Source: Escherichia coli (GTDB lineage Bacteria; Pseudomonadota; Gammaproteobacteria; Enterobacterales; Enterobacteriaceae). Taken from it: DNA of 64,000 nucleotides. The first letter of the stretch is position 1. Each line of letters opens with the position of its first letter. A model generated the notes under the pieces. It was not told the DNA's origin. It did no database searches and saw only the letters and a program-made list of their open reading frames with translations. The stretch is from NCBI RefSeq assembly GCF_003334355.1, contig NZ_QOWP01000001.1. The stretch is one strand, 5' to 3'. A program made the translations under genes and the position numbers. This document shows positions 2,864 through 39,310 of this stretch, piece after piece.

Positions 2864-4381
2864 TTATTTCACCGGACGCATCGCCGGGAACAGAATAACG
2901 TCGCGGATGGTATGGCTGTTGGTGAACAGCATTACCATACGGTCGATACCAATCCCCAGACCTGCTGTCGGCGGTAAGCCATGTTCCAGTGCGGTGACGT
3001 AATCTTCATCGTAGAACATCGCTTCGTCGTCACCTGCATCTTTCGCGGCAACCTGATCCAGGAAGCGCTGCGCCTGATCTTCCGCGTCATTCAGCTCGCT
3101 AAAGCCGTTACCGATTTCACGACCACCAATGAAGAACTCAAAGCGGTCTGTGATTTCCGGGTTAACGTCGTTACGACGCGCCAGCGGAGAAACTTCTGCC
3201 GGATATTCAGTAATGAAGGTCGGCTGAATCAGATGTGCTTCTGCCACTTCTTCGAAGATCTCGGTAACGATACGGCCCAGACCCCAGCTCTTCTCAACGT
3301 GGATGCCGATAGATTCAGCAATCGCTTTTGCAGAGTCGAAGTTGTCCAGATCCGCCATGTCGGTTTCCGGGCGATATTTCTTGATCGCTTCACGCATGGT
3401 CAGTTTTTCGAACGGTTTACCGAAGTCCAGCGTCACGTCGCCGTAGGTCACTTCCGTCTTACCGAGAATATCCTGTGCCAGAGTACGGAACAGCGATTCG
3501 GTCAGCTCGATCAGATCTTTGTAATCTGCGTAAGCCATATAGAGTTCCATCATGGTGAACTCTGGGTTATGACGTACGGAAATACCTTCGTTACGGAAGT
3601 TACGGTTGATTTCGAATACACGCTCGAAGCCACCGACCACCAGACGCTTGAGGTACAGTTCCGGCGCGATACGCAGGTACATGTCAAGATCCAGCGCGTT
3701 ATGATGGGTGATAAACGGACGCGCAGCCGCACCGCCTGGGATCACCTGCATCATCGGCGTTTCAACTTCCATAAAGCCGCGATTTACCATGAACTGGCGA
3801 ATGCCAGAGAGGATCTGCGAACGCACTTTAAAGGTGTTGCGGGATTCATCGTTAGAGATGAGATCCAGATAACGCTGACGATAGCGCGCTTCCTGATCCT
3901 GCAAGCCGTGGAATTTGTCCGGCAGCGGACGCAGTGCTTTGGTCAGCAGACGCAGCTCGGTGCAGTGGATAGACAGTTCGCCGGTTTTGGTTTTGAACAG
4001 TTTACCTTTCGCGCCGAGGATGTCGCCGAGATCCCATTTTTTGAACTGCTCGTTGTAAACGCCTTCCGGAAGATCGTCACGGGCAACGTACAGCTGAATA
4101 CGACCGCCAACGTCCTGCAGGGTAACAAAAGAGGCTTTACCCATAATACGGCGGGTCATCATGCGGCCAGCAACGGCGACTTCGATGTTCAGCGCTTCCA
4201 GTTCTTCGTTCTCTTTACCGTCGAATTCTGCGTGCAATTGGTCAGAGGTATGATCGCGACGGAAATCGTTCGGGAAGGCAATTCCCTGCTCACGCAGGTT
4301 CGCCAGCTTCTCACGACGCGTTTTCAGTTCATTGTTAAGATCGACTACCGCGTCAGCGCCCTGTGCGTGTTGTTCAGACAT
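2864..4381 (-). CDS. lysS: Lysyl-tRNA synthetase (class II, constitutive)
   Basis: 505-aa [29 protein letters not shown]...; class II aaRS motifs; immediately downstream of prfB. Confidence 0.95.
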
Positions 4382-4390
4382 GTTGGTTCC

Positions 4391-5489
4391 TCATAACCCT
4401 GCTTTCAAACTTGCTTCGATAAATTGATCCAGGCTGCCGTCCAGCACGGCCTGCGTGTTGCGGGTTTCTACCCCGGTGCGCAGATCTTTAATGCGGGAGT
4501 CATCAAGGACATAAGAACGAATCTGGCTGCCCCAGCCGATGTCAGATTTGTTATCTTCCATCGCCTGTTTCTCAGCATTTTTCTTCTGCATCTCCAGTTC
4601 ATAAAGCTTCGCTTTCATCTGCTTCATGGCCTGGTCTTTGTTCTTGTGCTGGGAACGGTCGTTCTGGCACTGGGTCACGATCCCGGTCGGGATGTGGGTA
4701 ATACGCACCGCAGATTCGGTACGGTTAACGTGCTGACCGCCCGCGCCGGACGCGCGATAAACGTCAATGCGCAAATCCGCCGGGTTGATTTCGATATCAA
4801 TATCATCATCAACTTCCGGGTAAACAAACGCAGAGCTGAACGACGTATGGCGACGACCGCCGGAGTCAAACGGGCTCTTACGCACCAGGCGGTGAACGCC
4901 AGTTTCTGTACGCAGCCAGCCGTAAGCGTAATCGCCGGAGATTTTGATCGTCACGGATTTAATACCCGCCACTTCACCTTCCGACTCTTCGATGATTTCA
5001 GTTTTGAAACCACGCGATTCTGCCCAGCGCAGATACATACGCTCAAGCATGCTCGCCCAGTCCTGTGCTTCCGTACCGCCAGACCCCGCCTGAATATCGA
5101 GGTAGCAGTCGGCGCTGTCATATTCGCCAGAGAACATACGGCGGAACTCAAGCTGCGCCAGTTTTTCTTCCAGGGCGTCGAGTTCAGCAACGGCTTCGTT
5201 AAAGGTTTCTTCGTCGTCAGCTTCTACAGCCAGTTCCAGCAGACCAGAAACATCTTCCAGCCCCTGTTTCATTTGGTCGAGGGTGTCGACAACGGCTTCG
5301 AGGGAGGAACGCTCTTTACCCAGCGCCTGTGCGCGTTCGGGTTCGTTCCAGACATCCGGCTGTTCCAGCTCGGCGTTTACTTCTTCCAGACGCTCTTTCT
5401 TGGCGTCGTAGTCAAAGATACCCCCTAAGAACGTCGGAGCGTTCCGTGAGGTCCTGAATGCGATTATTTACCGGATTAATTTCAAACAT
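4391..5489 (-). CDS. prfB: Peptide chain release factor 2, made by programmed +1 frameshift (codons 1-25 at 5489..5415, U5414 skipped, remainder 5413..4391)
   Basis: Minus strand reads ATG TTT GAA ATT AAT CCG ... AGG GGG TAT CTT TGA C; the 0-frame ends at the in-frame UGA after 25 codons, and the +1 frame continues into ORF 4391..5272 with the GGQ motif ([19 protein letters not shown]). Total 365 aa. Confidence 0.95.
5411..5427 (-). promoter_or_regulatory. prfB programmed +1 frameshift site (internal SD-like AGGGGG, then CUU UGA C)
   Basis: Plus-strand gtcaaagataccccctaag is the reverse complement of TAGGGGGTATCTTTGAC; the classic RF2 autoregulatory site. Confidence 0.95.
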
Positions 5490-5579
5490 GGTCTGATTTC
5501 TTTTATTGAGCTAGTCAAAATGCGGTGATAAGAGCGGGATTGTACCCAATCCACGCTCTTTTTTATAGAGAAGATGACG

Positions 5580-7313
5580 CTAAATTGGCCAGATACTGTC
5601 GATGATAATTTGCAGGCTGCGGTTGCCGCGAAACTCGTTGATATCGAGCTTATAAGTCAGTTGCACTTCGCGCACGCCGTTATCCGGCCAGAGGGCGGTA
5701 TCGACATTAAAAGCAATACCATCCAGCAGTGGACCGCCGCCGACCGGTTCGACCATCACCTTCAAATGACGTTCGCCCACCAGCCGCTGTTGCAGCAGAC
5801 GGAAATGACCGTCAAACAGCGGCTCCGGGAACATCTGCCCCCACGGGCCAGCATCGCGCAGCAGCTGCGCCACTTCCATGGTCATTTCGGCCGGGCTTAA
5901 CGGACCGTCTGATACCACTTCGCCTTGCAATAGCGAAGGGTCCAGCCACTCAGTAACCAGTTCGCCAAACCGTTGTTGAAAGAGTTTGAATTTATCCTCT
6001 TCCAGCGACAAACCCGCCGCCATCGCATGACCGCCAAACTTCAGCATCATGCCAGGGTAGAGTGTGTCTAATCGCTCCAGCGCATCACGCATATGCAGCC
6101 CCTGAATGGAGCGACCGGAACCTTTCAGCGTACCGTCACCTGCTGGCGCAAACGCGATAACCGGACGGTGAAAACGCTCTTTGATGCGCGAAGCCAGAAT
6201 ACCGACAACGCCCTGATGCCATTCGGGGTGATACATTGCCAGCCCGCCGGGTAGCGTGTCACGGCTGCGCTCCAGTTTCTCGCACAGGGTCAGGGCTTCA
6301 ATTTGCATTCCTTGTTCGATCTCTTTTCGCGTCTGGTTTAGCGCATCGAGTTCATTTGCCAGCACGCGCGCTTCGCCGATGTTGTCGCACAACAACAGCG
6401 CCACACCGACGGACATATCGTCCAGTCGTCCGGCAGCATTGAGACGTGGCCCCAGCGCAAAACCTAAATCGCTGGCGGCGAGTTTTTGTGCATCACGGTT
6501 TGCCACTTCAAGCAGCGCTTTAATCCCCGGACGGCACTTTCCGGCTCGGATGCGACTCATCCCCTGCCAGGTCAGAATGCGATTATTAGCGTCCAGCGGC
6601 ACGACGTCCGCCACTGTCCCCAGCGCGACCAGATCCAGCAGTTCTGCCAGGTTAGGAATTGCGATGTTACGCTCATCAAACCAGCCCTGATCGCGCAAAA
6701 AGGTGCGCAGCGCCAGCATCAGATAAAACGCCACACCCACGCCTGCCAGTGATTTCGACGGGAAATTACAGTCGCGCAAGTTAGGGTTAATGATCGCTTC
6801 CGCTGCGGGTAATGTGTCGCCCGGCAAATGGTGATCGGTAACAATAACCGGGATGCCCAACGAGCGAGCGTGCTCAACTCCCGCATGGGAGGAAATACCG
6901 TTATCCACCGTGACAATTAACTGCGCGCCACGGGCATGGGCCTGATCGACCACTTCCGGGCTTAAGCCGTAACCGTCTTCGAAACGGTTTGGTACCAGGT
7001 AGTCGATATTGCTGCAACCAAGCGAGCGCATCGCCAGCACGCTTAGAGCCGTGCTGGTGGCACCGTCGGCGTCGAAATCACCGACCACAATAATCCGCGT
7101 TCCTTCGCGAAAAGCGTTGTAAAGGATCTCAACGGCCTTTTCGACGCCGCTCAGTTGCTGCCAGGGCAGCATACCTTTAACACTGCGTTCCAGTTCTTGC
7201 GCACTGCGTACTCCCCGGCTGGCGTATAAACGGCGCAGCAAGGGAGGCAATTCCGCGGGCAAGTCTGCCGTTTCATCGACTTCACGGCGACGAAGTTGTA
7301 TCTGTTGTTTCAC
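5580..7313 (-). CDS. recJ: Single-stranded-DNA-specific 5'-3' exonuclease RecJ
   Basis: 577-aa ORF, MKQQIQLRRREVDETADLPAELPPLLRRLYASRGV...; DHH/DHHA1 motifs; last gene of the xerD-dsbC-recJ cluster. Confidence 0.95.
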   Translation of the reverse strand: MKQQIQLRRREVDETADLPAELPPLLRRLYASRGVRSAQELERSVKGMLPWQQLSGVEKAVEILYNAFREGTRIIVVGDFDADGATSTALSVLAMRSLGCSNIDYLVPNRFEDGYGLSPEVVDQAHARGAQLIVTVDNGISSHAGVEHARSLGIPVIVTDHHLPGDTLPAAEAIINPNLRDCNFPSKSLAGVGVAFYLMLALRTFLRDQGWFDERNIAIPNLAELLDLVALGTVADVVPLDANNRILTWQGMSRIRAGKCRPGIKALLEVANRDAQKLAASDLGFALGPRLNAAGRLDDMSVGVALLLCDNIGEARVLANELDALNQTRKEIEQGMQIEALTLCEKLERSRDTLPGGLAMYHPEWHQGVVGILASRIKERFHRPVIAFAPAGDGTLKGSGRSIQGLHMRDALERLDTLYPGMMLKFGGHAMAAGLSLEEDKFKLFQQRFGELVTEWLDPSLLQGEVVSDGPLSPAEMTMEVAQLLRDAGPWGQMFPEPLFDGHFRLLQQRLVGERHLKVMVEPVGGGPLLDGIAFNVDTALWPDNGVREVQLTYKLDINEFRGNRSLQIIIDSIWPI

Positions 7314-11509: not shown

Positions 11510-11690
11510 TCGCATCAGGCATTTATCGCCTGATGCGACGCTGACTCGTCTTATCATGCCTGGGATTTGATACCTTTATCACAACAGGGGCGAGGCCCGT
11601 AAGTCGGATAAGGCGTTCACGCCGCATCCGGCGGTTGCGCTCCGATGCCTGATGCGACGCTGACGCGTCTTATCATGCCTACAAAGGCAC
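11510..11690. repeat. REP/BIME cluster (several repetitive extragenic palindromes)
   Basis: Repeated gcctgatgcgacgctg(a/g)c(t/g)cgtcttatcatgcct and ggataaggcgttcacgccgcatccggc units in alternating orientation. Confidence 0.85.
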
Positions 11691-39204: not shown

Positions 39205-39310
39205 GTCATGCCGGATGCGGCGTGAACGCCTTATCCGGCCTACAAAAACCTGCAAATTCAATATATTGCAGGATACGTGTAGGCCTGATAAGCGTAGCGC
39301 ATCAGGCAAT
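39205..39310. repeat. REP pair (BIME) in the mscS-fbaA intergenic region
   Basis: tgccggatgcggcgtgaacgccttatccggcctac and gtaggcctgataagcgtagcgcatcaggc in inverted orientation. Confidence 0.85.

What the first reader, a model, noticed from the sequence alone, without database searches (positions are those of the whole stretch)
5411..5489. prfB programmed +1 ribosomal frameshift is intact
The first 25 codons end at an in-frame UGA within AGG GGG UAU CUU UGA C. RF2 is produced only by a +1 shift at CUU, promoted by the internal SD-like AGGGGG and by low RF2. The shifted frame continues into the 340-codon body ending at 4391. Naive ORF callers (including the supplied track) report only a truncated 293-aa ORF.
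Basis: partly seen in the sequence, partly recalled or inferred. Interest (0 to 1): 0.5.

Follow-up and report, generated by a model that had tools for sequence, protein, structure and literature searches.

The report
Textbook prfB +1 frameshift site, intact
This is the well-known self-regulating +1 ribosomal frameshift site in the E. coli release factor 2 gene (prfB), complete and correctly read by the first-stage reader, so it is real but ordinary.

Summary
On the minus strand an ATG at 5489 opens 25 sense codons. They end at an in-frame TGA (5414-5412) inside AGGGGG-TAT-CTT-TGA-C. The +1 frame from GAC (5413-5411) runs 340 codons to the stop at 4393-4391.

The joined 365-aa product aligns residue 1-365 to residue 1-365, with no gap at the 25/26 junction, with solved E. 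coli RF2 chains. It passes the NCBIfam prfB model (525.9 bits, cutoff 370).

The window is collinear, at 99.97-99.99% identity, with the E. coli PSS-12 chromosome. RefSeq annotates that prfB at exactly these ends as a two-piece CDS labelled "programmed frameshift".

The 32-nt cassette occurs once in 5,417 of 5,426 complete E. coli genomes. The 14-base motif hit 120 sites in species-representative genomes, and 108 of them are prfB frameshift sites.

AGGGGGU is the strongest anti-Shine-Dalgarno pairing site in the prfB mRNA.

The mechanism is RF2-limited termination at UGA C competing with a +1 slip of tRNA-Leu on CUU_U, stimulated by the internal SD. It is established in the literature for E. 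coli and was not tested here.

Verdict: confirmed, interpretation supported, already known, low interest.

The parts
4391..5489 (-). Complete prfB gene (release factor 2): 1099 nt = 75 nt in the 0 frame, 1 skipped base, 1023 nt in the +1 frame including the stop.
5412..5489 (-). 0-frame leader: ATG, 24 further sense codons, and the in-frame UGA at codon 26. It yields a 25-aa peptide when RF2 terminates there.
   Evidence: translation [25 protein letters not shown]; listed as a 25-aa ORF.
5421..5426 (-). Internal Shine-Dalgarno-like stimulator AGGGGG. With the following U it can form 7 pairs with the 16S rRNA 3' end.
   Evidence: The duplex scan against CACCUCCUUA gives -10.7 kcal/mol here, the strongest site in the scanned prfB stretch, window 5600-4380.
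5418..5420 (-). 3-nt spacer UAU (Tyr24), the E-site codon at the moment of the shift.
   Evidence: The 3-nt spacing is fixed by the search pattern in the 107 prfB sites from other species, and TAT is the commonest spacer there (45 of 107).
5414..5417 (-). Slippery sequence CUU_U. P-site tRNA-Leu re-pairs from CUU (5417-5415) to UUU (5416-5414); base 5414 is the one effectively skipped.
   Evidence: The junction ...GYL|DYD... matches RF2 chains with no gap. The element is defined in PMC12421855.
5411..5414 (-). RF2-specific premature stop UGA (5414-5412) followed by C (5411), a poor termination context. RF2 concentration is sensed here.
   Evidence: PMC12421855.
4391..5413 (-). +1-frame body: GAC (Asp26) to Leu365, then the stop TGA at 4393-4391. 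It contains the SPF stop-codon recognition motif (4876-4868) and the GGQ catalytic motif (4741-4733). Residue 246 is Ala (GCG, 4753-4751).
   Evidence: translation; motif positions read; the TIGR00020 profile is matched over positions 2-353 of 353 in one stretch.

Best explanation
This is the canonical autoregulatory +1 programmed ribosomal frameshift of E. coli prfB.

Ribosomes start at the ATG at 5489 and translate 25 codons. They then place UGA (codon 26, followed by C, a weak context) in the A site, with tRNA-Leu on CUU in the P site.

- If RF2 is plentiful, it recognises UGA and releases a 25-aa peptide.
- If RF2 is scarce, the ribosome pauses. The AGGGGG(U) three bases upstream pairs with the anti-SD of 16S rRNA. 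This destabilises the E-site tRNA and favours a slip of tRNA-Leu from CUU to UUU. GAC enters the A site and translation continues in the +1 frame for 340 codons, giving full-length 365-aa RF2.

RF2 therefore sets its own synthesis rate.

Shown here: the complete cis anatomy, the identity of the product, the annotation of the identical locus, and the conservation of the site. Taken from the literature and not tested here: the slip itself, its efficiency, and its response to RF2.
For: Anatomy at the stated coordinates.

Product identity:
- The joined product aligns 1-365 to 1-365 with solved E. coli RF2, E = 8e-241, with no gap at residues 25/26.
- TIGR00020 prfB scores 525.9 bits against a cutoff of 370 and is covered over profile positions 2-353 of 353 in a single stretch. 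The 293-aa ORF alone covers only positions 64-353.

Annotation and genome context:
- RefSeq annotates the identical locus as a joined CDS, 'programmed frameshift'.
- The window is collinear with the E. coli PSS-12 chromosome at 99.97-99.99% identity.

Conservation:
- prfB is present once in all 5,426 complete E. coli genomes.
- The 32-nt cassette is present in 5,417 of them.
- Of 120 occurrences of TAGGGGGNNNCTTTGAC across species-representative genomes, 107 have an RF2 homologue in the +1 frame and a start codon 22-28 codons upstream. One more (L083) is a prfB with a second frame break.

Stimulator and alternative frames:
- AGGGGGU is the strongest anti-SD pairing site in the mRNA.
- The 0 frame past UGA closes after 31 codons and encodes nothing RF2-like. 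The +2 frame closes after 11 codons.

Literature:
- Mechanism and element requirements: PMC12421855.
- Ribosome profiling of the endogenous E. coli locus gives about 28% frameshifting in K-12 and about 21% with the Ala246 B-type allele: PMC5373646.
- Inactivating the SD-like stimulator drops frameshifting from about 40-90% to about 10%: PMC6815119.
Against: Nothing in the sequence contradicts it. There are four limits.

- No expression data exist for this particular strain.
- +1 cannot be told from -2 (same resulting frame, one extra residue) by sequence alone. I rely on prior protein-level work for the Leu25-Asp26 junction.
- The cross-species sample was ascertained by the motif itself. It shows the motif is diagnostic of prfB, not how many prfB genes carry it. 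For prevalence I rely on PMC12421855 (64% of 12,753 genomes).
- No Rfam family matched. This is expected, because the element does not depend on a folded RNA (PMC6815119).
Confidence: 0.97

Rival explanations
1. The gene is broken. The in-frame TGA and frame change would then reflect a pseudogene or a one-base sequencing or assembly error, not a programmed event.
For: A frame break in an essential gene looks the same as an indel error to an ORF caller. Homopolymer runs such as GGGGG are error-prone: three of 5,426 E. coli assemblies carry GGGG here and so have a single-frame prfB.
Against: The identical 32-nt cassette is present in 5,417 of 5,426 independent complete E. coli genomes. The same arrangement occurs in 107-108 prfB genes of diverse genera, including Bacillus, Vibrio, Legionella, Paenibacillus and Listeria. 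RefSeq curates it as programmed. The literature reports it in 64% of 12,753 bacterial genomes.
Confidence: 0.01
2. The UGA is decoded, by readthrough or as selenocysteine, rather than bypassed, so translation continues in the 0 frame.
For: UGA followed by C is a leaky context, and UGA is the selenocysteine codon (general knowledge).
Against: The 0 frame past UGA reads [31 protein letters not shown] and stops after 31 codons with no RF2 similarity. No SECIS or other Rfam element was found in 4300-5700 even at E up to 10. Only the +1 frame encodes RF2.
Confidence: 0.005
3. Functional protein is made by independent initiation at the ATG at 5272 (Met73), giving the 293-aa ORF. The upstream 25-codon ORF would be an unrelated leader peptide.
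For: The 293-aa ORF is what mechanical ORF calling returns. On its own it still exceeds the prfB model cutoff, at 474.5 bits.
Against: It would lack profile positions 1-63. The 47 +1-frame codons between 5413 and 5272 and the 25 0-frame codons match residues 1-72 of solved RF2 exactly, which independent ORFs would not explain. No purine-rich SD precedes the ATG at 5272 (ccctcgaccaaATG).
Confidence: 0.01

Closest known systems
E. coli prfB (RF2) autoregulatory +1 programmed ribosomal frameshift (described by Craigen and Caskey in the 1980s; surveyed in PMC12421855)
   Same: Everything matches: the organism (E. coli), the position (codon 26), the exact cassette CUU AGG GGG UAU CUU UGA C, the 365-aa product, and the genomic context dsbC-recJ-prfB-lysS.
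   Different: Only allelic detail differs. RF2 here has Ala246 (B-type, canonical) rather than the Thr246 of K-12 (PMC5373646). Ribosome profiling in that paper gave somewhat lower frameshifting with the Ala246 allele (about 21% against about 28%).
dnaX -1 programmed frameshift of E. coli
   Same: It is also a chromosomal recoding site that uses an upstream internal SD-like stimulator pairing with 16S rRNA (PMC6815119).
   Different: dnaX shifts -1 on a slippery heptamer, uses a longer SD spacing plus a downstream stem-loop, and makes two functional products. The prfB site shifts +1 at a stop codon, needs no folded RNA, and is an autoregulatory on/off switch.
Eukaryotic antizyme (OAZ) +1 frameshift
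   Same: It is a +1 shift at a UGA stop codon that serves as a sensor in an autoregulatory loop (my own knowledge, not tested here).
   Different: The sensor there is polyamine level rather than the gene's own product acting as release factor. The stimulators are a downstream pseudoknot and upstream elements, not SD/anti-SD pairing.

Membership tests
prfB programmed +1 frameshift | The gene encodes class-1 release factor RF2, with SPF and GGQ motifs. | tested here: met
   TIGR00020 prfB scores 525.9 bits against a cutoff of 370, while the RF1 models fall below their cutoffs. The product aligns 1-365 with solved E. coli RF2. SPF is at residues 205-207 and GGQ at 250-252 in the translation.
prfB programmed +1 frameshift | A premature in-frame RF2-specific stop (UGA) lies near codon 26. 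| tested here: met
   TGA at 5414-5412 is codon 26 counted from the ATG at 5489.
prfB programmed +1 frameshift | A slippery CUU codon immediately precedes the stop, giving CUUU. | tested here: met
   CTT at 5417-5415 is followed by the T at 5414.
prfB programmed +1 frameshift | C follows the stop codon, giving the weak terminator UGAC. | tested here: met
   C at 5411.
prfB programmed +1 frameshift | An internal SD-like AGGGGG lies exactly 3 nt upstream of CUU (6 nt upstream of the stop) and can pair with the anti-SD. | tested here: met
   AGGGGG at 5426-5421 with the spacer TAT. The predicted duplex with CACCUCCUUA is -10.7 kcal/mol, the best in the prfB mRNA. The spacing agrees with PMC12421855.
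prfB programmed +1 frameshift | The +1 frame is open from the site to the end of a full-length RF2, and no single-frame alternative exists. | tested here: met
   There are 340 open codons in the +1 frame. Upstream, the +1 frame has a stop and no start codon. The 0 and +2 frames close within 31 and 11 codons.
prfB programmed +1 frameshift | The site is conserved in orthologues. | tested here: met
   5,417 of 5,426 E. coli genomes carry the cassette. 107-108 of 120 motif occurrences in other species are prfB sites with a start 22-28 codons upstream.
prfB programmed +1 frameshift | Ribosomes actually shift +1 here, with an efficiency inversely related to RF2 level. | not testable with these tools
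   Established for the same sequence in E. coli K-12 and in a K-12 strain carrying the B allele by ribosome profiling and reporters (PMC5373646; PMC6815119). Not measured for this strain.

The most novel reading that the evidence does not exclude
The most novel reading not excluded concerns lysS. The prfB stop codon (4393-4391) overlaps an SD-like GAGGAA only 9 nt before the lysS ATG (4381). The fraction of ribosomes that frameshift, and so reach the 3' end of prfB, might then also set the translation of the constitutive lysyl-tRNA synthetase by translational coupling. That would link LysRS supply to termination capacity. In this Ala246 background the set-point would be lower than in K-12. This is inferred from gene spacing only. 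It may already have been examined in the older operon literature, which I could not search.
Probability: 0.1. Interest if true: 0.2.

Novelty: already known. Interest (0 to 1): 0.04.

Why it matters
For a genome scan it matters only as an annotation point. Naive ORF callers split or truncate prfB into 25-aa and 293-aa ORFs, and the correct product needs a joined CDS. Biologically it is the textbook example of a release factor sensing its own abundance at a premature stop codon. Finding it intact in one more E. coli chromosome adds no new knowledge. It does serve as a positive control: the first-stage reader can recognise recoding signals from raw sequence.

Tried and rejected
- An Rfam scan of 4300-5700 at E up to 10 gave only sub-threshold chance hits and no frameshift element or SECIS. 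This is expected, since the prfB signal is linear rather than structural.
- The promoter/terminator consensus scan of 4200-5800 gave nothing beyond shuffle expectation. It found one promoter-like site inside the coding region and one hairpin in the recJ-prfB spacer, so I make no claim about the prfB promoter.
It was repeated successfully.
- I considered an unbiased protein-based scan (search for related loci) to measure what fraction of prfB genes carry the site. I did not run it because of its cost and because PMC12421855 already gives that figure (64% of 12,753 genomes).
- Pseudogene or sequencing error, UGA readthrough or selenocysteine, and internal initiation at Met73 were considered and rejected (see the rival explanations).
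- I checked the least similar E. coli hits for loss of the site. Three assemblies have GGGG in place of GGGGG. I could not tell a real mutation from a homopolymer error.

Full report
**Observation**

I read window 4300-5700 on the minus strand. An ATG lies at 5489-5487. The next 24 codons give [25 protein letters not shown], and they are followed by an in-frame TGA at 5414-5412. The local sequence is CTT AGG GGG TAT CTT TGA C:
- AGGGGG at 5426-5421
- TAT at 5420-5418
- CTT at 5417-5415
- TGA at 5414-5412
- C at 5411

Skipping the T at 5414 and reading from GAC (5413-5411) gives 340 sense codons, ending at the TGA at 4393-4391. Upstream of the shift site the +1 frame has a stop and no start codon, so no single-frame full-length gene exists.

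AGGGGGNNNCTTTGAC, searched with up to one mismatch allowed, occurs once in the 64-kb window, here and with no mismatch. Shuffles gave 0.06 matches on average.

**Identity of the product**

The joined 365-aa translation aligns residue 1-365 to residue 1-365 with solved E. coli RF2 chains (1gqe_A, E = 8e-241), with no gap at the Leu25/Asp26 junction. It differs from 1gqe_A at one residue, and from the K-12-type chain 1ml5_Z only at residue 246, which is Ala here and Thr there.

Against NCBIfam it scores 525.9 bits on TIGR00020 (prfB, cutoff 370), covering profile positions 2-353 of 353 in one stretch. The RF1 models fall below their cutoffs. The 293-aa ORF alone covers only profile positions 64-353. 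The SPF (residues 205-207; 4876-4868) and GGQ (250-252; 4741-4733) motifs are present.

**Genomic context and existing annotation**

The 1.4-kb region matches all 5,426 complete E. coli genomes, once each. It is 100% identical to E. coli PSS-12 (NZ_AP027697.1). Its ends map back to window 5489 and 4391.

The whole window is collinear with that chromosome at 99.97-99.99% identity. It carries ordinary core genes in the order xerD-dsbC-recJ-prfB-lysS-idi. This is therefore the E. coli prfB locus itself.

**Conservation of the site**

A 121-nt query spanning the start codon and the site matches all 5,426 genomes, 5,419 of them at 99% identity or more. A 32-nt query limited to the cassette (5440-5409) matches 5,417 of 5,426 genomes, once each.

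Beyond E. coli, I scanned species-representative genomes for TAGGGGGNNNCTTTGAC.
- In 107 of them the +1 frame after CTTT encodes an RF2 homologue (phmmer E from 2e-5, for hits cut off by a contig end, down to 2e-226).
- In those 107, a start codon lies 22-28 codons upstream, mostly at 24 or 25.
- One further site (L083) is a prfB with a second frame break.
- The hosts include Enterobacteriaceae, Vibrio, Legionella, Bacillus, Paenibacillus, Listeria and lactobacilli.

This sample was selected by the motif. It shows that the motif is diagnostic of prfB, not how common the motif is among prfB genes. For prevalence I rely on PMC12421855: 8,164 of 12,753 genomes (64%), with AGGGGG, CTTT, TGA and the following C hyper-conserved.

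**Mechanism**

The mechanism is established for E. coli and summarised in PMC12421855. With CUU in the P site and UGA-C in the A site, there are two outcomes:
- RF2 terminates and releases a 25-aa peptide.
- When RF2 is limiting, the SD-like sequence pairs with the anti-SD of 16S rRNA and displaces the E-site tRNA. tRNA-Leu slips +1 on CUUU, so GAC is read and full-length RF2 is made.

My own calculation agrees with the stimulator role. Scanning the prfB mRNA against CACCUCCUUA, the AGGGGGU site gives the best duplex, -10.7 kcal/mol.

The alternative frames are dead ends. The 0 frame past UGA closes after 31 codons and the +2 frame after 11. No Rfam family or SECIS is found, consistent with a signal that does not rely on folded mRNA (PMC6815119).

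Published measurements:
- Ribosome profiling at the endogenous locus gave about 28% frameshifting in K-12 and about 21% with the Ala246 B-type allele (PMC5373646).
- Inactivating the SD-like stimulator reduced frameshifting to about 10% (PMC6815119).

The slip and its response to RF2 were not tested here and are inferred for this strain from those studies.

**Rivals**

- Pseudogene or sequencing error is excluded by the conservation described above.
- Readthrough or selenocysteine cannot give RF2, because the 0 frame is closed and unrelated.
- Independent initiation at Met73 (the 293-aa ORF) does not explain why the 25 0-frame codons and the next 47 +1-frame codons match RF2 residues 1-72 exactly.
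- A -2 shift would give the same frame with one extra residue. Sequence alone cannot exclude it, and the Leu25-Asp26 junction rests on prior protein-level work (my own knowledge).

**Comparison and novelty**

Every defining feature of the prfB programmed frameshift that can be tested in silico is met (see the membership table). This is the founding example of the class, in its original species, and it is already annotated in RefSeq. Novelty: already known. Interest is low. The finding is a correct call and a useful positive control for the first-stage reader.

**Seen in passing**

- RF2 here carries Ala246, not the K-12 Thr246.
- The prfB stop overlaps an SD-like GAGGAA 9 nt before the lysS ATG, so translational coupling is possible.
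- Three E. coli assemblies carry GGGG in place of GGGGG and hence a single-frame prfB. Whether these are real mutations or homopolymer errors is unresolved.
- A hairpin sits in the recJ-prfB spacer.
- Rfam finds 6S RNA, SIB RNA, naRNA4 and ES036 elsewhere in the window.

Noticed in passing
window 4751-4753 (minus strand): RF2 residue 246 is Ala (GCG). This is the canonical or E. coli B-type allele, not the lower-activity Thr246 specific to K-12. The strain is therefore not K-12, and its RF2 should terminate better at UGA (PMC5373646).
   Followed up: partly
window 4379-4393 (minus strand): The prfB stop TGA (4393-4391) overlaps an SD-like GAGGAA, and the lysS ATG follows at 4381 after a 9-nt spacer. 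prfB and lysS look co-transcribed and possibly translationally coupled, so frameshift efficiency could influence lysS output.
   Followed up: no
L124 (NZ_CP024650.2, E. coli BH100 substr. MG2014) 1275-1279; also NZ_CP029973.1 and NZ_CP031355.1: Three of 5,426 complete E. coli assemblies have GGGG instead of GGGGG in the SD-like run. This puts prfB in a single frame, and for BH100, the only one of the three whose annotation I read, RefSeq gives an unjoined 1098-nt CDS. This is either a natural loss of RF2 autoregulation or a homopolymer assembly error.
   Followed up: partly
window about 5534-5566 (recJ-prfB intergenic region): An imperfect hairpin, AAGAGCGtGGATTGggtaCAATCCCGCTCTT, lies just after the recJ stop. 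The terminator scan flags its core (5537-5552) on the plus strand. It could be a recJ terminator or attenuator ahead of prfB. No convincing sigma-70 promoter match for prfB was found.
   Followed up: no
E. coli genome search results: One of the 5,426 prfB copies lies on a record labelled as a plasmid, while every genome has exactly one copy. This probably reflects a mislabelled replicon or chromosome fragment.
   Followed up: no
L021 13184-13200, L022 68-84, L023 68-84 (Belliella buryatensis): The 17-nt motif with identical flanks recurs near the ends of three contigs of one genome and is not in prfB. It looks like a repeated element at contig ends.
   Followed up: no
L083, motif on the minus strand (offset 2465 of the reverse-complemented 14,072-base locus): This is a Bacillales-like prfB with a canonical frameshift site. 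Its reading frame breaks a second time about 30 codons later and returns to the original frame. It is either an assembly error or a decaying gene.
   Followed up: partly
window 25190-25373 (+), 26022-26172 (+), 11602-11679 (+), 39244-39286 (+): These are the Rfam matches above the gathering score elsewhere in the window: 6S RNA (ssrS), SIB antitoxin RNA (next to an annotated Ibs toxin in PSS-12), naRNA4 and ES036. All are ordinary E. coli features.
   Followed up: no
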